DNA from: Octopus vulgaris
Taxonomy: Eukaryota
Length of the DNA stretch: 64,000 nt
Direction: 5' to 3'
NCBI GenBank assembly: GCA_951406725.2
Contig: OX597833.1
Location: 71,052,001 to 71,116,000, forward strand
The stretch's first letter is position 1. The number at the start of each line of letters is the position of its first letter. The notes under the pieces were generated by a model, which saw only the letters and a list, made by a program, of their open reading frames with translations, made no database searches and was not told the origin of the DNA. Made by a program: the position numbers and the translations under genes. Below, piece after piece: positions 14,077-62,930 of this stretch.

Positions 14077-14859
14077 CGTTTTCGATTCGTAATCTTTAAA
14101 CATTATATGCTTTAAACATATACATCCAAAGAAACTACAATCATTTTGGTTGTACTCAATAAATTCCGACTCTATTCTATAGGGATGCCCAATTCTTTCC
14201 AAGAAAAATTTAATAAAGAAGACTTCAACCTAATCATATGATACTCGTTGTTTTATTTAGTTTCCAGTCAACCACGAAGGAATGACCCATGGTCAAAGGC
14301 ATTTCAGCCACGACCTTCCTGACTACTGTTAGCTGGTGCGTCCTTTTTCATTTGAAGACATAACAGTGGGTTGAGAAAAATTTAGCTGTTATTTCTAACA
14401 GGCTTAGCAGCAATGTGAAGGATCCTTCGTAGAAACGGACGGTCGTGGGCCATCGGAAAGTTGTCTTTGCTATGGACACTGTACAGCGCCGGTCATACAA
14501 TTCCTTGGCTTACTACAACAGCCAATTCCTACAAAGAAAACCAGATATTCCACACCGTTTCAATATAGACTACACACATTCCGAGGTTAGGTTGTTTTAC
14601 TTCGAAGTTCACCAAACTGTGAGTATGCAGGTACTTCCAGATGGGCTGACATTACAGTCCACCTTTGTCGAGCTGAGTCCGCTCTGTACTAATAATGTAA
14701 AGCGTGGTTGTATACGATTTAACACCCAAAGGTGTCAAATGTTGGGCTGAAAAATGTTCACGTCTCTCGCTCGCGATTTCTTTCTACAAATTTCTGAAAA
14801 TTCTTTACCAATGAATAAAATGAATAAAATGTGTTGAATTTGAATATTCAGACTTTTTT

Positions 14860-15200
14860 TTACATACATAACACGGAGTCATAGTGCTAGTGCATGCATA
14901 TTACAGCTGCGTGGGTGCGCGCATACACACGAATACTGTCCAAATCTCTGACCAATCACATACAGCTAGCTGGCATTCAATTGGCGTATCAAGTTTCAGG
15001 CATTTTGATTGGGTTTGGGATAGAAAATTCACAAAAAAGTCACTTCTATTGATTTCTTAATGGCTTTGCGGGGTGACTGGGGAAATGTAAAGATGTGCAC
15101 GATCACCCTTGGACGGTTTTGAATGACCATAGAAAGTGCGAGCCCTCTAACTGTGGATTTGTATAAAGGACATGCACACAGACATTTTGCCGTTTATATA
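14860..15200 (-). mobile_element. Helitron-like 5' fragment
   Basis: Minus strand begins tatatataaacggcaaaatgtctgtgtg, the same style of 5' end as 15877. 3' end not identified. Confidence 0.35.
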
Positions 15201-15234
15201 TATATATATATACACACATACATATCGTGGCACT

Positions 15235-15609
15235 ACGTCGGTTACGACGACGAGGGTTCCAGTTGATCCGATCAAGGGAACAGCCTTCTCGTGATATTAA
15301 CGTGCAAGTGGCTGAGCACTCCATAGACACGTGTACCCTTAACATAGTTCTCGGGGAGATTCAGCATGACACAGAGTGTGACAAGGCTGACCCTTTGAAA
15401 TACAGATACAACAGAAACAGGGAGAAAGAGTGAGAGAAAGTTGTGGTAGAAGAGCACAGCAGGGTTCGCCACCGCTCCCCTGCCGAAACCTCGGGGAACT
15501 TTAGATGTTTGCGCTCAATAAACACTCACAACGCCCGGTCTGGGTATCGAAACCGCGATCCTACGACCGTAAGTTCGTTGCCCTAAGCACTGGGCCATTG
15601 CGCCTCCAC
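15235..15609 (-). mobile_element. SINE family B
   Basis: Homology to 1-213 and 22328-22660. Confidence 0.85.
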
Positions 15610-15876
15610 TACACACACAGAGCAGTAACCTGGGTCTCTAACTCGCAGCTATAGAAAGTAAGGGCACTGCTGTCTGAAAAGCATTAAAGACCCCGGGGAA
15701 ATAGGTGATCTGGGCTCTATAGCACTTATTTTTTAAGCAAACCACAGCAGACATAGATCAGAATTGGGTCCCCATACCCTTGAGCTCCTTGGGCAACTGT
15801 CCAGTGTATCCATGCTCTAAAATGGCACTTTCCTTAGGGAATTTCATTCTGCCTTGTTTTTATGTAACCCAGGTTA

Positions 15877-16279
15877 TCTTTATATATAAAAGTGAGGTTG
15901 TGTGCTGTCTGTCTCCTACGATTTAGATTCCTAACTACTCCCACATTTTGCGGTGCAGTGTAACCAATACCGGGTATCTTATAGTCGTGATTCATATCGA
16001 GCCCTTCTGGGTATTAGCGCGCGTCTACGATGAGTCTACGATTTTTAAAATAATTTACCATAATTTTTTTTCCATTTTAATGCATTTTTTCGCTATTATA
16101 TAAGGGAAGTAACTCTCTAAAAATGTCTACGATGAGTCAACGATTTTTAAAAAAATTTACCATCATTTTTTTCCCATTTTTAATGCATTTTTTTTGCTAT
16201 TTTTTTGGCTATAACTCTCTAAAAATGCTTTATAGTTATTTCCCTTACAAACCCGAGCAACGCCGGGCGATACTGCTAG
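15877..16279 (+). mobile_element. Non-autonomous Helitron (complete)
   Basis: 5' TC (a|TCtttatatataaa), 3' hairpin cccg-agcaacg-ccggg then CTAG|t, inserted between A and T with no TSD, internal tandem subrepeats. Confidence 0.8.
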
Positions 16280-17684
16280 TTAAACATATAATTACGATAT
16301 TATACTAATAAGCTAAAGGCGGCGGCGACTGCCAGAATCGTTCGCCCCAATGTGCTTGGCGACATTTCATCCAACACTTTATGTTCTGAGTTCAAAACCG
16401 GTCGAGTTTAACTTCGCCTTTCATGTTTCAGTGTCGATAAAATACAATTGCCAGTCAAGTATTGCGATCGATGGAATCGATTAACTCCCTCACCCCTCCT
16501 CCTATAATTGCTGGCCATATTCAAACATTCGAAGCTATTATGCAACGATCACGAGCAAGTTACTGAATGGTTAAAAAGTATTGATTTCTTTTTCTTTCTA
16601 CAAAAATTGTTTTTTTTTAATTTTATTAAAATAATTGTAATTTACACTTTCGAAAATATATCACTGAAAATATTCATAAAAATTATTCAAAAAGCTATGA
16701 GAAAATATATCGAGTGGGGGCACTAAACTGTAGTTATACCGGTTGGTGTGGCAATTAAATGTCATAAAATGATTTTTATTTCCTTATTCATAGTTCTTTA
16801 TTTCATATTCCAATTCTGCGATGAATTTATAACATTTGAGCACTTTTAATCTTTTCCCTTATATTTTCACCGGCTTTTTGCAGACTTCAGCAAGAATTTA
16901 TTGTATGTTTTTTCTTAAAATTCTAAACAATTTATCAGTTCGACTGAACATCTGTTTGTTTGTGTATAAAGGTGTATATAAAGTTTATGCCATAGCGACT
17001 CCTCTGGGAACTACACTAACCCCACATGGTTTATAAACGGTAATATTGTTTCTAGCTTCGTAGGTTTCTTGAAGTACTAAAAGCACGAGAAAATTATGTT
17101 TAGAATAAAATCTTACTACGAAAGGATCCCTACAAAGTCATTTCCCCTCACAGAGGCAGGAAGGCTTGACAAAAGGTTATCTTTTCCAGAAAAGGATGGT
17201 AGACAACCTTATTCTGTGTGTTGCTTGTGATGAGGCAATAACGTGGAGTGGTGTCCAGCTATCATAAAGTTTACGGTCGTAGGGAATTGTCCTTAAAAAT
17301 GAAAGTAGATTACGACAGGAACCGGAAGTGACGACAGTGGTATCCCTTAATACGATACAAACAATACGTAACGTAACCGATGTAAAAATGTAGAATGTAG
17401 AAATATAAAAACCGTCCATATATCTAATATATATAAGAGTTTATGTGTGCGTGTGTGTGCACGCATGTTCCTTATGCATTCGAAATGTGAGATGCCGATT
17501 TTGACGTATTAGGTATCAAAAGATTCAGTAATGTTTCGGCTACCAAATAAACTTTATTTTCATTTACATATTTTCTACATTCTCTTAACAACCAGAATTA
17601 TTTGAAAAATACTACTCTACAATCGGAATTAGTCACATCTGTACCATGATAAAGAAAGTTGCTTATAATCTATCTATCTATCTA

Positions 17685-17758
<74 letters not shown>

Positions 17759-17844
17759 TTAGAGACAAAACCACTATTTTGCAAAACAAACAAGGAAAGA
17801 CTTAATCAATACATAAAATTTTAATAAAAAGTCAAAAAAAACCG

Positions 17845-17887
17845 CCACTACAATTGTTTCTTGTCTTGATCGACAATCTTCAGGTGG
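17845..17887 (-). ncRNA. Minimal type I hammerhead ribozyme motif (intact core)
   Basis: Minus strand CCAC-CUGAAGA-UUGUC gaucaa GACAA-GAAA-C AAUU G-UA^-GUGG: stem I CCAC/GUGG, core CUGANGA and GAAA, 5 bp stem II, palindromic stem III, GUA cleavage triplet. Confidence 0.85.
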
Positions 17888-17940
17888 ACTTCCAATCTAT
17901 ATATATATATATATGTATGTCTCTCTCTCTCTCTCTCTCT

Positions 17941-18275
17941 TTTTTACTTGTTTCAGTCATTTGACTGCGGCCATGCTGGATCACCGCCTTTAATCGAGCA
18001 ACTCGACCCCGGGACTTATTCTTTTGTAAGCCGGTTTCTTTTGCCGAACCGCTAGGTAACGGGGACATAAACACACCAGCATCGGTTGTCAAGCAATGCT
18101 AGGGGGCAAACACAGACACACAAACACGCATACGCATATATATGATGGGCTTCTTTCAGTTTCCGTCTACCAAATCCACTCACAAGGCTTTGGTCGGCCC
18201 AAGGCTATAGTAGAAGAATTGCCCAAGGTGCCACGCAGTGAACCATGTGGTTGGTAAGCAAGCTACTTCTGCGCC
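17941..18275 (-). mobile_element. SINE family A (small internal deletions)
   Basis: Homology to 4493-4890. Confidence 0.85.
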
Positions 18276-18523
18276 TATGTATGTATATATAAAGATATAT
18301 ATATATACTTTTATTGCGCCCCTTCGTCCTGTCAACTAAAATCTTGAAAACACTACATATGACAGTAACAAATGACATTGACAAAAGGAAAGAGTTTTCA
18401 ATGAGATGTTAACAGTGCGAAAAATCAATGATATCTATGAATGAACAACTTTTAAAAACTAAAGTCGATAGAGACCTAGAAATTCACAGATGTCTATTCT
18501 AAATAAGACACCTGGGACGTGAA

Positions 18524-18595
18524 GGGGATGTAGCTCAGTGGTAGAGCGTTCGCTTCGCAAGTGAAAGGCCCCGGGTTCGATCCCCGGCATCTCCA
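18524..18595 (+). tRNA. tRNA-Ala(CGC)
   Basis: Same body as the other copies but the anticodon loop is TT-CGC-AA. G3:U70 present, T-run downstream. Confidence 0.93.
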
Positions 18596-18663
18596 TTGAA
18601 AATAATTTTTGCTTTGGCTTGTTCTAAAAGTTTGTATTGTGTATGCATAACACGTCGCGTTTT

Positions 18664-18696
18664 TTGCATGTTATGTGAAAGGTCCCGGCCTCTCCA
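18664..18696 (+). pseudogene. tRNA-Ala 3' half relic with T-arm deletion
   Basis: tttgcatg-tt-atgtgaaaggtcccggcctctcca matches TTTGCATGTGAAAGGCCCCGG[GTTCGATCCCCGG deleted]CATCTCCA. Confidence 0.6.
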
Positions 18697-18764
18697 GGTG
18701 GAGTATTTTTATTTTGTATATGATGTACAATGAATTCACTAATGTCGTGTATTTTTTTTGTGAC

Positions 18765-19095
18765 CCCCTTCGGTCAGACACTGACCATGGGTTTGCACCT
18801 AGAGAGTTACCCTCTGAGGCACAGGTCTGGGCAAGGTTTGTTTTATGGAAGACCAGCAGTCGCCCATGCATACCGGCCTCCCCTCTCCATGTCACCGATG
18901 TCATCCAAGGGAAAGGCAAAGGGGCCGATACAGCTTGGCACCTGTGACGTCGCAATTCATTTCTACAGCTGAGTGAAGTGGAGCAACGTGAAATAAAGTG
19001 TCTTGCTCAAGAACACAACAAGCAGCCCGGTCCGGGATTCGAGCTCACAACCTCACGATTGTAAGCTCGACGCTCTAACCACTGAGCCACGCGCC
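18765..19095 (-). mobile_element. tRNA-derived SINE, family D
   Basis: Minus-strand head ggcgcgtggctcagtggttagagcgtc...gctcgaatccc. Second copy at 60125-60380. Confidence 0.8.
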
Positions 19096-20694
19096 CACGC
19101 GCCAGTGAAGGCGCGTGGCTCAGTGTCGTGTATATCATTAAATTAATTGACTATAACATATCGCCAGAAGTTAACCTCTCCACCTTCATCATCATGTTCT
19201 AAATTCGGATACGACTGAGGGTGGACTTGAGGCCGGCAATATATCGACTGATGACACACATGGCTGCTGTTGTCATGGGGTTTACGACCGTGTAGGACCT
19301 GCTATTCTGTTTTAAGTATTACTTCAAAATAAACCGACACACTTTTAGCTATTTCTATGCCTTATTAATATTTATTTTTGAGCGTGGATTCTTAGTTTTA
19401 AGAAGAAATAATGACGGGGTCTCTGATTAAGTACCCACATCTTCAGGGAGAAAGGAAAGAATAATGTTTGTCTTCGATTTTTGGCATCCCTACGATTAAC
19501 GCAATGGAAATTATGATTCTGAAAGAATTTTTCGTTTTTAAATTTTTAATTGTTAAGAAAAATTTACTTGATGTCAATTAGACTGGTGAACCTTTTATGA
19601 ATTGGGTATAACGATCAGTGCAATATCTTGGAGGACAGACAGGTAGATAAAAGGTGGAAGTTAGACAAGTCAAATAGCCAGCTTTAATGAGGAGAAATTC
19701 CAAAAGTAGCAATATATAAAAAAAAAAGAATGAAGCGACAGCATGTATATAGGTGAGCAATTCCAAGCCAGTTAATTGGGTGGCCATTTCTTTTTCCTTT
19801 TCTAGATGCAATCTCATGTGTCTGTCTGTATGCAGTAGCAACTCCCGTCCCAGATATGGTAATTGTACTTAGGACTTGAATAGATTTCGGAATTGTCGAA
19901 AGCAGAAGCATTAGGTGGCTTCAAAAGAAATGATCAGTGTTTGGGATACAGTTTTTTATCGTTTTTTTTTTTGTCTATGATATGGATACAAGTTAATTAA
20001 TGTTTGTCTGACGTAACTTGTGATTTTCATACATTATCGTTGCCCATGATTTAGGGTGGTGAGGTACACGATGGCTTCCTTGATACGTGTAGTGGTCGTA
20101 GAAGGCGATAAGATTGGAGATTTTTTTTTCTTTTGTGGTGTCTGTTCAATGAAGCAATGTAAATTTAGTGCGAAGTGTATCGGTGGCATGTGGACAGTGC
20201 ATATATGCGGAAGGCTAGGAAGGAATGAACAGTTATATATGTATCATTTAAGGTGACAGCAAGGAGGAATCGTATGGGTGACATAGATGAATCTTGGGGT
20301 ACGCTAGAGTTAATGGACTGTGATTTGGTGGTGTCGGCTAATTCAAAAACTAAAAAGAAGGATAGAACCCATATTGAGGCAGTTCAGCTTGAAAATTGCC
20401 ATGACAGATAAAGTGAACTCGGGGTTGAATAACGAAAGGATCACAGTTTGCCCACGTCTCTCTTTATCTCTGTCTTTTCCTCTCAAAAATTGAGCCCCTT
20501 CGCCTTGTCTACTAAAACTAAGTACTACACATGAGAGAAATAAGCGACATTGACAAAATGAAAGAGTTTTTAATGAGCTGTAAACAACGTGAGAAATCAA
20601 TGTTATCAGTAAATGAAACACGTCAAAAGCTAAATTCAATGGAGTCCTAAAAATTCGCAGATGTTAATTTTAAATACAGCACGTTTGACGTGAC

Positions 20695-20766
20695 GGGGAT
20701 GTAGCTCAGTGGTAGAGCGTTCGCTTTGCATGTGAAAGGCCCCGGGTTCAATCCCCGGCATCTCCA
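20695..20766 (+). tRNA. tRNA-Ala(TGC), T-loop TTCAATC variant
   Basis: Full cloverleaf, B box GGTTCAATCC, T7 terminator. Confidence 0.95.
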
Positions 20767-48354: not shown

Positions 48355-48825
48355 TTATTTATTATTATCCAATTTATAACTTACTACTTGTTCTTCACCC
48401 ATAGCTGATAACACAGTAAGAACAAGGGCCTGATCGCTTTTGTGCTTATCGCTTATTTCTTTGCCGATGTCAGTAGTTGGTAGGTTTAAATCGTCTTTAA
48501 TTGCTCCGTCATCTTCCAACAGGGTCAAGTAGTTATTCGCGTCGATATCAATCAAAAGGTAGTCCTTTCGCTTCACGTTGGGCACCTCCATATTGTGAGT
48601 GGAGGGACAAATATCTTCGTACTTTTTGCCGCTGAACAGGTCCAGGCCAACGAGATGAACCTTAGCGTGACCATGTTTGCCGGTTTTCGACGTGGACATA
48701 TCTACGATTTTACACGGTCTGCCTTTCAGAAGAACGTAGCCATTCTTGCGTAAGCTGGAACATTGTTGCGGATAGGTCTGCGATGCTCCTGCATCTCCTG
48801 TATCGAAATTCTCTTCAGAAGCCAT
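48355..48825 (-). CDS. EIF5A: Eukaryotic translation initiation factor 5A, intronless CDS, 156 aa
   Basis: Translation MASEENFDTGDAGASQTYPQQCSSLRKNGYVLLKGRPCKIVDMSTSKTGKHGHAKVHLVG...EDICPSTHNM...TVLSAMGEE contains the invariant hypusination motif STSKTGKHGHAK. ATG at 48825 (context ttgtcATGg), stop TAA at 48355-48357, no frameshifts. Confidence 0.97.
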   Translation of the reverse strand: MASEENFDTGDAGASQTYPQQCSSLRKNGYVLLKGRPCKIVDMSTSKTGKHGHAKVHLVGLDLFSGKKYEDICPSTHNMEVPNVKRKDYLLIDIDANNYLTLLEDDGAIKDDLNLPTTDIGKEISDKHKSDQALVLTVLSAMGEEQVVSYKLDNNK

Positions 48826-49004
48826 GACAAAATAAAAATCGGTGATGTTATTTTCGAGTTCTTGAGTTGTTATTATAAGTTGTTGTTTTTTTTCTGTTGT
48901 TGAGCGCGATTCCTCGAGGAAGACGAGGTTTGCAGTCCAGCAGATGTGAATGAGAATGGAACTATATACACAGTCGTTCACCTGCTCTTCCACGAGAGCA
49001 ACTT

Positions 49005-49015
49005 GAAAAGAAGAG
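49005..49015 (-). promoter_or_regulatory. TCT/5'TOP-like polypyrimidine initiator, candidate eIF5A transcription start
   Basis: Minus strand reads tag-CTCTTCTTTTC-aag about 190 nt upstream of the ATG. TCT initiators are typical of translation-machinery genes. Confidence 0.5.
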
Positions 49016-52000
49016 CTAGGCAAGGGACATAACTACTAAAATGCCGCTTGACACCGCAAACAATTATAGCCTCCACAAAAATAACATTTCCATTAATAAT
49101 CACCAAAAATATATTCAGCGACGCATTAAAAAAACTACAATCACATTCACTAATTTTTTAAAATGCTAAAACATCAGATACAAAATATAAATTCTTCGTT
49201 AATGCTAATACAAATTAATATTTTTATTTTCAGCGATTTGAGCGATCGCATCGAATGTACCCTGACTATGAAATAGTTAAAAATAGAAATATTCTCTATT
49301 TTATTATAATTTTATTTTTTAATATAAACTTCAGAAATTGAAGTTATATTTAAATAGTTTCCTAAAATATTAGTCGATAATAAATAATATTTTAGTAGTT
49401 TTCAAATCGTATTCATATATTAATTTATTTCACAAGAATAGTTCTGCACATAGAGTTGAGTCATTTCAAAAACCACCCTGGAACACGTGAATCTGAAATA
49501 CGTATATACAAGTTATACAGAACTAAATAATAATACTTATAATAATAAATTATCAAAATGGAAATATGATATCGTAATATATTTTTATATTGCACATTCA
49601 ATATTAAATTGATATTTTAATTTTGCTAATAAATTAAATTAGTCCGAAAGAATATATTTAAGATGAAAACTCCCACACTTTGAAAGGACGAACTGAATCC
49701 CCGAAACTCACTTTCAATAAATGACTGCATAATGTTTATAGGGAACAATTCCAAATCATTCCAATTAGAGTTTAAACATAATACTAAACACGATATCACT
49801 TCAGTATTTTTTTTGCCCTTCAATTGCAGAAAATTAATTTTCGTAGATCGTCAGTTCCATTCCGGATTTTGTATGAATTCAATCAAAAAATAAAACGTTT
49901 CCTCTCCAAATTGTTGAAGTAATCCAAGAAAATTTCTTCACATGGTCATCCTGAAAGTCAATTGTTGATTGCTTTTGTTCTTTCTTTCCCGTTTTTTTTT
50001 TTAACTGATGACAGTAATTCATTTAAATTGTATCGTAAAGTTTTTAAAAATTATTTTTTAAATACGCGAAACATTTTTTTGTCCCAGAACTGAGTCCAGA
50101 AATTTTAAAATGGTTAATTTATTGAGACTAACAAAATTTCGGTGCCAGATTTATGTCGGTAACTCACTCCCTCAGTCTCCTAAGAAATACAAATATATAT
50201 ATATATATACGTCTACATGTGTGTGTGTGTATATATATATATATACGTCTACATGTGTGTGTATATATATATATACGTCCACATGTGTGTATACATATAT
50301 ATATATATAATACACATGTGGACGTATGTAAGGTTTTTGTATATGCCTGTATATAATATAATGTTTATATATATATATATGTGTGTGTGTATTATATGAA
50401 TGGAATTGTATGCCGTGCTCATGTGCACTATACGAAGCTGGGGTATACTCGGTCGCTACTCCGAGTTTATCCTTCAATACGATTGATTCTATAGTTCACA
50501 GTGAAATTGAAATAGAGCGAATTGAGTGAGAAACTGAATGGTAACAGAGGAAATGTCTAACTATTTACAAATATATACTCTACAACATGTAACGAGTACT
50601 CTTTTGAATAAAAGAAAAAGCGTTTGTAATATATATATATACATATATACACTCACACAAATATATGTGTGTGTGTGTGAATAGTAATCTTGTCGAATAC
50701 GTTCGTAATTAGAGGGTCCTTGACCTTCAGTACAAAACATTAGCGACCTAATTGAGTCAAGGTTAATAATTAAGCACATTCTTTTACTTGTTTCATGACT
50801 GCGGCCATGCTGGAGCACCGCCTTTAGTCGAACAAATTCAACCCCCGGGACTTATTCTTTTGTAAGCCTAGCACTTATTCTATCAGTCACTTTTTGCAGA
50901 ACCGCCAAGCTACGGGGACGTAAACACACCAACATCGGTTGTCAAGCGATAGTGGGTGGGGACACACGACCTGCTTCTTTCAGTTTCCTTCTACCAAATC
51001 CACTCACATGGCTTTGTTCAGTCAGAGGCTGTAGCAGAAGACACTTGCCCAAGGTGCCACGCAGTGGGACTGAACCCAGAACCATGTGGTTGGGAAGCAA
51101 GCTACTTTCCACACACTAACTCCTCTGCTTATATATATATCTTTTTTTAAAAAAACTCAGCAACAGATCATGCTCTAAAAAATTTATGTATATTTATCTG
51201 TTAGTGTATATTCATGCTGGTGTGTTTACATCCCCGTCACTTAACTGTTCGGCAAAAGAGACCGATACAATAAGTACTGGGCTTGCAAAGAATAAGTCCT
51301 GGGGTCGATTTGCTCGACTAAAGGCGGGGCTCCAGCATGGCCGCAGTCAAATGACTGAAACGAGTAAAAGAGAGAGTAGTGTTGCCATGACAATGGTTAG
51401 GGTCAGGGTTAGGGTTGTCATATCTTGCAGCAAATTGTGCAGTTCTCAATGGAAAATCTGTTGTGAATGTATTCGTCAAGGTTATCAATATATTCGTATA
51501 AAGTCAATGCTTCACTTCTTTGGTACTCAGAGTTTCCCCATAACCCGCTCATTCAGGGTTTAGGAAACCCCAACAGACATATTACTGGCAAACCACAGAA
51601 GATAGGAAGGGAATCTTCCATTTTGTAACAATAAATGAAACTTACTGCCTCTGACTTTCTCATTTGAATATTCAAACTTGTGTCATCGTTATCTAACATC
51701 TGTTTTCTGTGGCCGGCATGGGTCAAACGGCTTGATTGGCACTGGTCAGGCCAGAGAGCTGCAGCAGACTCCAGTCGTCTGCTTTGGCTTGATTTCTTAC
51801 AGCTGGATGCCTTTCCTAGTGCTGACCACTTTAAACAGTGTGCCAGTGGAGCACTAAGAGTACCATATGAGTGAGATCGTTGCCAGAGCGACAAGCTGGC
51901 CTCCGTGCCGATGGCACGTTAAAAACACCATTCGAGCGTGATCGTTACCTGCGTTGCCTTACTGGCACTTGTGCTGGTGGCATGTGAAAAAACATTTGAG

Positions 52001-61487: not shown

Positions 61488-62930
61488 GTTTGGACATCTC
61501 TCACCAAATGCTTGTCTATCCCTAGTTTCCACATTGCCCACAGGATAACAGAATGGGTGATCCAGTCAAAGGTCAGCAAAAGCCGAGTACAGTGGCGGTA
61601 GTGGTGGTGGTGGTGGTGGTGGTGGTGGTGGTGGTGGTGGTGGTGGTGGTGGTGGTGGTGGTGGTGGTGGTGGTGGTGGTGGTGGTGGTGGTGGTGGTGG
61701 TGGTGGTGGTGGTGGTGGTGGTGGTGGTGGTGGTGGTGGTGGTGGTGGTGGTGGTGGTGGTGGTGGTGGTGGTGGTGGTGGTGGTGGTGGTGGTGGTGGT
61801 GGTGGTGGTGGTGGTGGTGGTGGTGGTGGTGGTGGTGGTGGTGGTGGTGGTGGTGGTGGTGGTGGTGGTGGTGGTGGTGGTGGTGGTGGTGGTGGTGGTG
61901 GTGGTGGTGGTGGTGGTGGTGGTGGTGGTGGTGGTGGTGGTGGTGGTGGTGGTGGTGGTGGTGGTGGTGGTGGTGGTGGTGGTGGTGGTGGTGGTGGTGG
62001 TGGTGGTGGTGGTGGTGGTGGTGGTGGTGGTGGTGGTGGTGGTGGTGGTGGTGGTGGTGGTGGTGGTGGTGGTGGTGGTGGTGGTGGTGGTGGTGGTGGT
62101 GGTGGTGGTGGTGGTGGTGGTGGTGGTGGTGGTGGTGGTGGTGGTGGTGGTGGTGGTGGTGGTGGTGGTGGTGGTGGTGGTGGTGGTGGTGGTGGTGGTG
62201 GTGGTGGTGGTGGTGGTGGTGGTGGTGGTGGTGGTGGTGGTGGTGGTGGTGGTGGTGGTGGTGGTGGTGGTGGTGGTGGTGGTGGTGGTGGTGGTGGTGG
62301 TGGTGGTGGTGGTGGTGGTGGTGGTGGTGGTGGTGGTGGTGGTGGTGGTGGTGGTGGTGGTGGTGGTGGTGGTGGTGGTGGTGGTGGTGGTGGTGGTGGT
62401 GGTGGTGGTGGTGGTGGTGGTGGTGGTGGTGGTGGTGGTGGTGGTGGTGGTGGTGGTGGTGGTGGTGGTGGTGGTGGTGGTGGTGGTGGTGGTGGTGGTG
62501 GTGGTGGTGGTGGTGGTGGTGACGGCAGTGGTGGTGGTGGTGGTGGTGGTGGTGGTGGTGGTGGTGGTGGTGGTGGTGGGGGTTATTTTTGGCCAAGCGC
62601 TTCTGCTGCGGCTGCCTCACCTGGAAGATAGCTTTGGTAGTGTTTCTTTCAGGTACAAAAACCAAGCTGCATCTCACCTAGGTTAACTCTTTTCCTAATT
62701 AATTGACTCGTTACTCTTTCTGTAACTTTCATCACCTGTTCCAGTAATTGGATGACTCTGTAATTACTTCTGTCCAAGGTATCCCTTTTACCTTTACAGG
62801 AGTGACTCCCTTGTGGACAACCTGACTAACTCTATGGGTGACAAGCTCATATCCCACTCCACCAGATATTTTAAGCGTCTCAGTGGTGATTCCTGATGGG
62901 CCAGGAGCTTTCTGTGTACCATACTTCATG
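61488..62930 (-). mobile_element. RTE-clade LINE reverse-transcriptase relic interrupted by (GGT)n
   Basis: Minus-strand peptides KAPGPSGITTETLK, ERNTTKAIFQVRQPQQKRLAKNNP, PLYSAFADL and FDWITHSVILWAMWKLGID match RTE RT motifs (KAxGPxGI, STxDAIFxxRQLQEK, PLYxAFVDLEKAFD). Frameshifted. Confidence 0.8.
61601..62579. repeat. (GGT)n trinucleotide tract, ~980 bp
   Basis: Essentially pure GGT from 61601 to 62521, one short interruption, then more GGT. Confidence 0.98.

What the first reader, a model, noticed from the sequence alone, without database searches (positions are those of the whole stretch)
17845..17887. Textbook-intact minimal hammerhead ribozyme between two (TA)n tracts inside the tRNA-Ala cluster
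Minus strand reads CCAC CUGAAGA UUGUC-gaucaa-GACAA GAAA CAAUUG UA GUGG. All invariant core nucleotides are present, stems I and II pair perfectly, and stem III is the palindrome CAAUUG, the signature of dimer-dependent minimal hammerheads. The only deviation is a U-A rather than G-C pair at 10.1-11.1. Predicted cleavage falls between 17849 and 17848.
Basis: partly seen in the sequence, partly recalled or inferred. Interest (0 to 1): 0.8.

Follow-up and report, generated by a model that had tools for sequence, protein, structure and literature searches.

The report
Hammerhead tail of Penelope-like retrotransposon
This hammerhead ribozyme motif is real but of a known kind: it is the leftover end of a jumping gene with hundreds of copies in this genome, it likely cuts only when two copies pair, and its many intron-less sister copies indicate that the element likely copies spliced sense RNA.

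Summary
The 43-nt motif at 17845-17887 (-) is exactly as described and more than chance (3 of 300 shuffles). It is not a tRNA-cluster feature. It lies in a ~150-bp, 5'-truncated terminal repeat (pLTR) of a young Penelope-like retrotransposon inserted in (TA)n; the genome holds 492 exact copies. Full-length copies read pLTR/hammerhead, ~840-aa ORF (telomerase-like RT, C-terminal GIY-YIG motif), long 3'UTR, pLTR/hammerhead, with the diagnostic motifs of the Hydra clade. Minimal hammerheads in Hydra-clade pLTRs are published, including non-G-C 10.1/11.1 positions. The stem III palindrome (ACAAUUGU) is kept through compensatory changes in subfamilies, and two copies co-fold into a double hammerhead, so dimer-dependent cleavage is likely but untested. 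This solo copy is probably inert. The less ordinary result is at family level: a GT-AG intron ends 9 nt before stem I, and 314 exact spliced junctions stand beside 296 unspliced ones. Spliced arms stop at a likely start site and never reach the ORF; the two arms of head-to-head pairs share splice state (0 of 45 mixed) and end at two fixed sites. This bears on the open question of Penelope intron retention. Verdict: new member of a known kind.

The parts
17748..17899 (-). 5'-truncated pLTR copy of a Hydra-clade Penelope-like retrotransposon (about 150 bp; both ends blur into TA repeats by a few bases)
   Evidence: 100% identical over 133 bp to copies at G000:C17 and C3; 95% to both pLTRs of the full-length copy L101, the only match of the window to the element
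17845..17887 (-). minimal type I hammerhead ribozyme motif; predicted cut between 17849 and 17848
   Evidence: sequence; descriptor and shuffles; 492 exact copies in the genome
17877..17883 (-). core CUGAAGA (C3-A9)
   Evidence: no recurring variant among 86 arms collected without using the core (per-position counts)
17861..17876 (-). stem II UGUC/GACA with loop GAUCAA, flanked by the variable 10.1 (U) and 11.1 (A) positions
17850..17857 (-). 8-nt palindrome ACAAUUGU, predicted intermolecular stem III of a double hammerhead
   Evidence: co-fold; other palindromes in subfamilies
17896..17899 (-). inferred 3' splice site: TAG (17899-17897) then first base of exon 2 (17896), 9 nt before stem I; this copy starts here
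   Evidence: GT-AG intron and precisely joined copies; only 3 nt match the intron end, so the splice state of this copy is not settled
17687..17752 (.). (TA)n tract at the element's 3' end: insertion target, overlapping the main 3' end site (+136 from C3)
   Evidence: 40 of 94 copies end at +136 and run into TA repeats
17898..17915 (.). short (TA)n tract at the element's 5' side: other half of the target
   Evidence: sequence

Best explanation
The motif is the minimal hammerhead in the terminal repeat of a young Penelope-like retrotransposon (Hydra-clade motifs), left here as a 150-bp truncated copy in a (TA)n tract; in the parent RNA two copies likely pair through the stem III palindrome and would then cut after UA, while this lone copy is likely inert. 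Shown: the copy, its family, the element's layout, the ORF, the TA target, two fixed 3' end sites. Inferred: the element is transcribed from a start site in the upstream pLTR, a 5'-UTR intron is spliced, the GIY-YIG domain nicks (TA)n, and the RT primes inside the RNA about 100 or 185 nt downstream of the hammerhead cut site, on uncleaved RNA, giving short copies like this one when it stalls or when it primes at the 5' pLTR. Inferred from the literature: cleavage is slow and needs a second copy or the element's protein, and trims or regulates long element transcripts rather than being needed for insertion.
For: 492 exact copies, control 0; 1,665 with a relaxed pattern. L101 has hammerheads at 1636 and 7946 around an 841-aa open frame and ends in (TA)n. 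12 of 115 protein matches are >=95% identical with open frames of 820-862 aa and no stop in the matched part. The model's best folds are telomerase RTs (ranks 1-8, E 4e-9 to 7e-8). Motifs SDKT, CxCx5C, VVY..YIG, CxxC, CxH are in the protein and its homologues and are the Hydra-clade marks (PMC8557442 section 11). 90 of 94 copies end at +125..140 or +212..226 in TA repeats. Co-fold MFE of two copies is the double hammerhead, -22.0 kcal/mol against -6.5 per monomer. Palindrome states ACAATTGT, ACGATCGT, ACGTACGT, ACACGTGT and the wobble form ACGATTGT occur in subfamilies; L190 also swaps stem I to TAAC/GTTA.
Against: No cleavage or expression data here. Published minimal PLE hammerheads cleave weakly even as dimers (PMC4209133). 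In natural flanks the monomer misfolds. 0 of 149 copies in hand begin at the cut site (+36), though that sample is enriched for intact motifs. In L193 and L194 stem I pairs only 2 bp and L196 has a non-palindromic ACATTTGT in both pLTRs. Pfam finds neither RT nor GIY-YIG in the protein or 14 homologues and no solved structure matches by sequence. The unit is 6.3 kb, not <3 kb as is usual for Hydra elements, and the RWK motif reads KWK. No tree was built.
Confidence: 0.88

Rival explanations
1. The motif is kept mainly as an RNA pairing or folding signal (dimerising element RNAs or regulating the adjacent splice site) and cleaves little or not at all in vivo. Compatible with the same element identity.
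For: All 492 exact copies span the cut site, so their templates were uncut; none of 149 copies starts at the cut site; 10.1/11.1 are unconstrained; in the anole element, ribozyme mutants did not affect insertion (PMC11167929); the splice acceptor is 9 nt from stem I.
Against: The catalytic core is kept across subfamilies whose loop II, N7, stems and flanks change (these were found with core-based patterns, so this is partly circular); among 86 arms collected without the core, recurring variants fall only in loop II, one wobble-compatible stem III site and the flank. The anole hammerhead does cleave when protein is present.
Confidence: 0.25
2. The short copies form a self-propagating non-autonomous family (retrozyme- or SINE-like) descended from one spliced master, and the window copy belongs to it.
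For: Short ORF-less copies are very numerous; animal retrozymes are reported to derive from PLE pLTRs (bioRxiv 10.64898/2026.07.22.740005).
Against: No head-to-tail tandem of short units was seen; pairs are head-to-head. Spliced arms carry the same lineage variants as ORF-bearing copies (stem III A>G in 14 of 86, loop II A>G in 7 of 86), use two donors 4 nt apart and occur in an older subfamily with its own exon 1 (L151), so they arose repeatedly from full-length elements.
Confidence: 0.07
3. A stand-alone host ribozyme that processes transcripts of the tRNA-Ala cluster.
For: It lies 640 bp from a tRNA-Ala gene and is intact.
Against: It is on the strand opposite to all five tRNA genes and upstream of the nearest; no other tRNA unit has one; it is intact because the insertion is recent (100% identical to copies elsewhere); no partner copy lies in the 64 kb.
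Confidence: 0.02

Closest known systems
Hydra clade of Penelope-like elements and their hammerheads (Craig et al. 2021, PMC8557442; e.g. Hydra-2_Amil, Hydra-1_cRog, Hydra-1_Obim)
   Same: C-terminal endonuclease, DKT, CxCx5C linker, CxxC and CxH, (TA)n target, hammerhead near the 3' end with CUGANGA-U, 4-bp stem II, variable base before GAAA and palindromic stem III. Homologue P0005 (35% identical to the ORF) is by eye nearly the same as the printed part of Hydra-2_Amil.
   Different: A different family from Hydra-1_Obim (protein start and hammerhead differ). Unit 6.3 kb with a 3.5-kb 3'UTR holding a 1.1-2.4 kb intron; Asn-rich insert in the ORF; RWK reads KWK; stem III has no loop base; hundreds of near-identical copies.
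Minimal hammerheads (min-HHR) of metazoan PLEs (Cervera and de la Pena 2014, PMC4209133)
   Same: 4-bp stem I, extra base after A9, palindromic helix III, solo and opposite-strand pairs, intron ending just before helix I as in Drosophila virilis Penelope.
   Different: Lacks the G10.1-C11.1 pair that paper calls highly conserved; palindrome is 8 nt; very low sequence variation in the young subfamily.
Poseidon element of the green anole, PAc (Frangieh et al. 2024, PMC11167929)
   Same: Two internal 3' end sites downstream of the hammerhead ('tail'), AT-rich target, uncleaved RNA as template.
   Different: Other clade; here the tail is about 80-90 nt (usual 30-40), both sites lie upstream of the start codon, and nearly every inverted pair uses one of each.
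Non-LTR retrozymes of animals (PMC7229834, abstract only; bioRxiv 10.64898/2026.07.22.740005, first part read)
   Same: Type I hammerhead, short non-coding copies, pLTR-related.
   Different: Retrozymes are head-to-tail tandem repeats; this copy is solo, sisters are head-to-head, and full-length coding parents exist.

Membership tests
Type I minimal hammerhead ribozyme | Core C3 U4 G5 A6 N7 G8 A9, G12 A13 A14 A15.1, U16.1 H17 | tested here: met
Type I minimal hammerhead ribozyme | Stems I and II closed, open ends in stem I | tested here: met
   pairs listed; stem I swap in L190; but not the favoured monomer fold in flanks
Type I minimal hammerhead ribozyme | Short palindromic stem III allowing a double hammerhead | tested here: met
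   co-fold MFE; four palindrome states and a wobble form
Type I minimal hammerhead ribozyme | Site-specific self-cleavage | not testable with these tools
   needs in vitro assay or RNA end mapping
Canonical hammerhead as modelled in Rfam / with G10.1-C11.1 | Rfam score, and purine-pyrimidine G10.1-C11.1 pair | tested here: not met
   no hammerhead family at E<=10; U-A here, variable in relatives. Not filed under the canonical families.
Penelope-like element (EN+) | Single ORF with telomerase-related RT | tested here: met
   852- and 841-aa frames; YRDD; fold ranks 1-8 are TERTs; Pfam silent
Penelope-like element (EN+) | GIY-YIG endonuclease in the same ORF | tested here: met
   by motif and homology only: VVY..VYIG conserved in the alignment; atlas neighbours carry PF01541 in 26-50% of members; no Pfam score
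Penelope-like element (EN+) | Direct and inverted pLTRs, optional tail, hammerhead in the pLTR | tested here: met
   L101, L103, L111 direct; 45 inverted pairs; two 3' end sites
Hydra clade | DKT in place of DKG; CxCx5C linker; CxxC and CxH around E and N; no CCHH | tested here: met
   SDKT, CTCRDKSNC, CYLC, CRH read by eye in P0001 against PMC8557442 section 11
Hydra clade | N-terminal RWK motif | tested here: inconclusive
   reads RIKWK; homologues read RWK, RWR or KWK in the same column
Hydra clade | Insertion into (TA)n | tested here: met
   flanks of 90 of 94 copies
Hydra clade | Groups with Hydra in an RT phylogeny | not tested
   reference sequences not available as tool inputs; nearest evidence is P0005, by eye close to Hydra-2_Amil
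Non-LTR retrozyme | Head-to-tail tandem short units, each with a hammerhead, no coding parent | tested here: not met
   solo in the window; pairs are inverted; coding parents exist

The most novel reading that the evidence does not exclude
This family keeps a genomic record of how Penelope-like elements move: about half of its hammerhead-bearing arms are copies of the spliced, sense, uncut RNA, running from an internal RT start to the transcription start and ending as dead-end minis, while only priming at the downstream, still unspliced pLTR gives long copies. Each head-to-head pair is made from one template at two RT start sites, one per target strand. Intron retention and head-to-head inversions then need no antisense template, which answers a question left open in PMC3846280 and PMC8557442.
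Probability: 0.55. Interest if true: 0.62.

Novelty: new member of a known kind. Interest (0 to 1): 0.4.

Why it matters
The motif itself adds one more family to a published class. The family matters more: it is young, has at least 12 near-identical full-length reading frames, and its insertions can be sorted by splice state, start site, RT start site and lineage variant. That makes two standing questions testable from genome sequence alone: why Penelope-like elements keep introns, and how their inverted ends form. It is also a clean system for asking whether the pLTR hammerhead ever cuts in vivo. For annotators, it explains some 1,600 hammerhead-like hits in this genome as transposon ends.

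Tried and rejected
Rfam at gathering threshold (whole window) and at E<=10 (801 bp): no hammerhead. Pfam on the ORF and 14 homologues, and a profile search of solved structures: nothing useful. First clade guess Naiad, from the TA target: rejected, since the endonuclease is C-terminal and a hammerhead is present. A link to the tRNA genes: rejected (strand, single copy, recent insertion). RNA evidence: no RNA holder listed, and no reads could be laid, so expression, splicing in RNA and cleavage in vivo remain untested. Footprint of cleaved templates: 0 of 149 copies in hand start at the cut site, 22 start elsewhere inside +1..+180; the sample is biased to intact motifs and a genome-wide count was not obtained. 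DNA-level deletion as the source of the intron-less copies: rejected, since the joint is exact GT-AG without a direct repeat and a second donor 4 nt away is also used. One search had an off-by-one acceptor and is superseded; the group labels for +19..+28 are off by one, so only per-position counts are used. My descriptor missed hammerheads with long stem II (L190, L193, L194) until read by eye; 12 of 20 divergent ORF loci showed none within the 9.9 kb fetched. Earlier findings of this scan: none returned. Lunse et al. on dimer cleavage was not held; Arkhipova 2003 was not read; Repbase and Dfam could not be searched, so the family may already be catalogued there.

Full report
Observation. The minus strand of 17887-17845 reads CCAC CUGAAGA U UGUC GAUCAA GACA A GAA ACAAUUGU A GUGG. 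This is a type I hammerhead layout with all core letters, a 4-bp stem I, a 4-bp stem II flanked by U and A, and an 8-nt palindrome as stem III; the predicted cut is between 17849 and 17848. The core letters alone are common, but the full descriptor is met once in the window and in 3 of 300 shuffles. Rfam does not recognise it. Alone it folds no better than shuffles (z -0.48), and in nine natural contexts stem I has probability 0.014 or less; two copies co-fold, as their minimum-energy state, into the double hammerhead at -22.0 kcal/mol. Below, positions are counted from C3 = +1 (17883); the cut is after +35.

What it belongs to. The 133 bp between the TA tracts has 940 first-look candidates in the genome, of which 40 were scored, most at 98-100% identity. 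The 43-nt motif has 492 exact copies (control 0) and a relaxed pattern 1,665. One copy is followed, 270 bp downstream on the same strand, by an 852-aa open frame. A search with its RT part returned 115 matches from 113 of 13,917 candidates scored; 12 are at least 95% identical with open frames of 820-862 aa and no stop in the matched part. Locus L101 shows the whole unit: hammerhead at 1636, 841-aa frame, 3.5-kb 3'UTR, hammerhead at 7946, then (TA)n. The window holds only the terminal 150 bp and no coding part. Pfam and a sequence search of solved structures are silent on the protein, but its model (mean pLDDT 78.9) matches telomerase RTs at ranks 1-8, and it carries SDKT, YRDD, CxCx5C, VVY..YIG, CxxC and CxH, conserved in 14 homologues. 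These are the marks of the Hydra clade of Penelope-like elements (PMC8557442, sections 11, 12, 15 and passages read), which insert in (TA)n and carry hammerheads. Its supplement (parts searched and part 2 read) lists Hydra hammerheads of the same build, many with U.U at 10.1/11.1, and an octopus family, Hydra-1_Obim, that differs from this one in protein and hammerhead. Differences from the clade description: 6.3 kb rather than under 3 kb, and KWK for RWK. No tree was built.

Is the ribozyme under selection? Across subfamilies N7, loop II (2 to about 50 nt), the 10.1/11.1 letters and the flanks change. Stem III stays self-complementary as ACAATTGT, ACGATCGT (L199, L194), ACGTACGT (L193) and ACACGTGT (L190), with a wobble form ACGATTGT in ORF-bearing young copies; L190 also has stem I as TAAC/GTTA. 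Against this: stem I pairs only 2 bp in L193 and L194, both pLTRs of L196 have ACATTTGT, and these copies were found through their cores. Among 86 arms collected by splice junction only, variants seen in several copies lie at loop II (+18, 7 copies), the wobble-compatible +29 (14 copies) and the flanks; the core shows three single changes (per-position counts). This fits selection for a dimer helix and an intact core in source elements, as published for minimal PLE hammerheads, which cleave weakly and only as dimers (PMC4209133, parts 1-2 of 4 read; review passages in PMC6765202). In the anole element the hammerhead cut only with protein present and was not needed for insertion (PMC11167929, parts 1-2 of 4).

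Ends. Of 94 distinct copies with 400 bases of flank in hand, 52 end at +125..140 (40 at +136), 38 at +212..226, all running into TA repeats, and 4 continue into the ORF. The window copy ends at +136. Both end sites contain TATA-like words, so priming by pairing with the nicked target is a plausible inference. None of 149 copies begins at the cut site, in a sample biased to intact motifs; every exact copy spans the site, so its template was uncut or rejoined.

The intron. Two sequences are found upstream of the motif. In long copies it is ...TTTTAG|ATTGG; in short ones ...GACTT|ATTGG. The second is the exact joint of a donor GACTT|GTAAGT 1.1-2.4 kb upstream with that acceptor (1,845 nt in L200), and 3 copies use a second GT 4 nt on. 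The acceptor lies 9 nt before stem I, recalling D. virilis Penelope (PMC2377424 passages). Exact junction counts are 314 spliced and 296 unspliced; these are arms, not insertion events. Among 169 arms in hand (70 of the 314 spliced places were fetched on purpose), 100 are spliced, 59 unspliced, 10 too short to class. 97 of 100 spliced arms carry 23 nt or less of exon 1, 16 of them stopping at the A of a TCACT word like the initiator noted in PMC3846280; the longest is 50 nt; none passes +226. Unspliced arms extend 35 nt to 7 kb, median about 1.5 kb. Of 45 head-to-head pairs, 29 are spliced/spliced, 12 unspliced/unspliced, 4 undetermined, none mixed, and 41 have one short-end and one long-end arm; no inverted intron lies upstream of 96 spliced arms. 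Both arms share lineage variants: 0 of 45 mixed at +18 and +29, 1 of 42 at +54. Gene conversion between palindrome arms could also give shared variants, and two RNAs from one source locus are not excluded. An older subfamily shows the same spliced palindromic pair (L151). The window copy matches only 3 nt of the intron end, so its own splice state is open.

Mechanism. Shown: layout, copy number, target, two end sites, spliced and unspliced classes, paired arms. Inferred: a promoter in the upstream pLTR gives a sense RNA with a short first exon; the protein nicks (TA)n on both strands and primes at the two internal sites; priming at the spliced 5' pLTR yields 150-260 bp dead ends, priming at the downstream pLTR, whose intron copy is evidently not spliced in the templates used, yields long copies; the two cDNAs join by short homology to give the inversion. 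The hammerhead most likely cuts slowly, as a dimer or with protein, and is dispensable for insertion. The window copy lacks promoter, partner and ORF and lies opposite to and upstream of the nearest tRNA gene, so it is most likely inert.

Novelty. Hammerheads in Hydra-clade pLTRs are published; this is a new family as far as the papers read show, and Repbase and Dfam could not be checked. PMC3846280 (discussion read) argued that head-to-head palindromes and intron retention suggest an antisense template and left the matter open; PMC8557442 calls the significance of intron retention unknown. Five full-text searches and two on octopus found no report of abundant spliced genomic PLE copies; the library lacks most subscription papers, Arkhipova 2003 and Lunse et al. 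among those not read, and one supplement of PMC4209133 was not searchable. Score: motif alone about 0.2; with the family-level record, 0.4.

Noticed in passing
G000 genome-wide; e.g. L242, L064, L004, L151: Hundreds of short head-to-head pairs of spliced pLTR copies with near-perfect palindromic joints centred on AATT or TTATT words in exon 1.
   Followed up: partly
L100:6113 and 7322; L111:396; L179: The 3'UTR holds an internal duplicate of exon 1 whose donor GT is changed to GA; one spliced copy (L179) appears to use the GT 4 nt downstream of that duplicate.
   Followed up: partly
L180-L187 (e.g. G000:C2:168270830, C8:21324090): A second young family, 54% identical in RT, with open frames up to 962 aa; L182:9753 has a hammerhead CTGTG/CACAG with stem III ACCG-TT-CGGT that may be its own.
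   Followed up: partly
L046:3190-3550 (P0001 residues about 494-614): Asn-rich low-complexity insert of variable length between RT thumb and linker, like the N-rich inserts of rotifer Penelope ORFs.
   Followed up: no
L101:4870-5640: Within the 3'UTR a roughly 0.8-kb AC-rich block lies in a GT-rich surround and looks like an inverted piece of the UTR itself.
   Followed up: no
L038:8459-8531: An unrelated hammerhead-like motif (CATG CTGATGA G...C GAA ACGCGT A CATA) with a G-C pair at 10.1/11.1, probably of another element.
   Followed up: no
window 17939-18268 (+): A SINE-like repeat with about 20 relatives in the window; it resembles octopus SINEs (recalled, not tested). With the 2.8-Gb size and a partial hit to an Octopus bimaculoides protein this suggests an octopus, as a lead only.
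   Followed up: no
window 48355-49032 (-): One open frame holds what looks like a whole eIF5A coding sequence without introns (name recalled from the sequence); possibly a retrocopy.
   Followed up: no
window 61592-62583: A (GTG)n tract of about 330 units at 98% identity.
   Followed up: no
window 8963-20766 (+): Five tRNA-Ala genes (4 TGC, 1 CGC); those at 18524 and 20695 share about 280 bp of upstream flank at 81% identity, pointing to local duplication.
   Followed up: no
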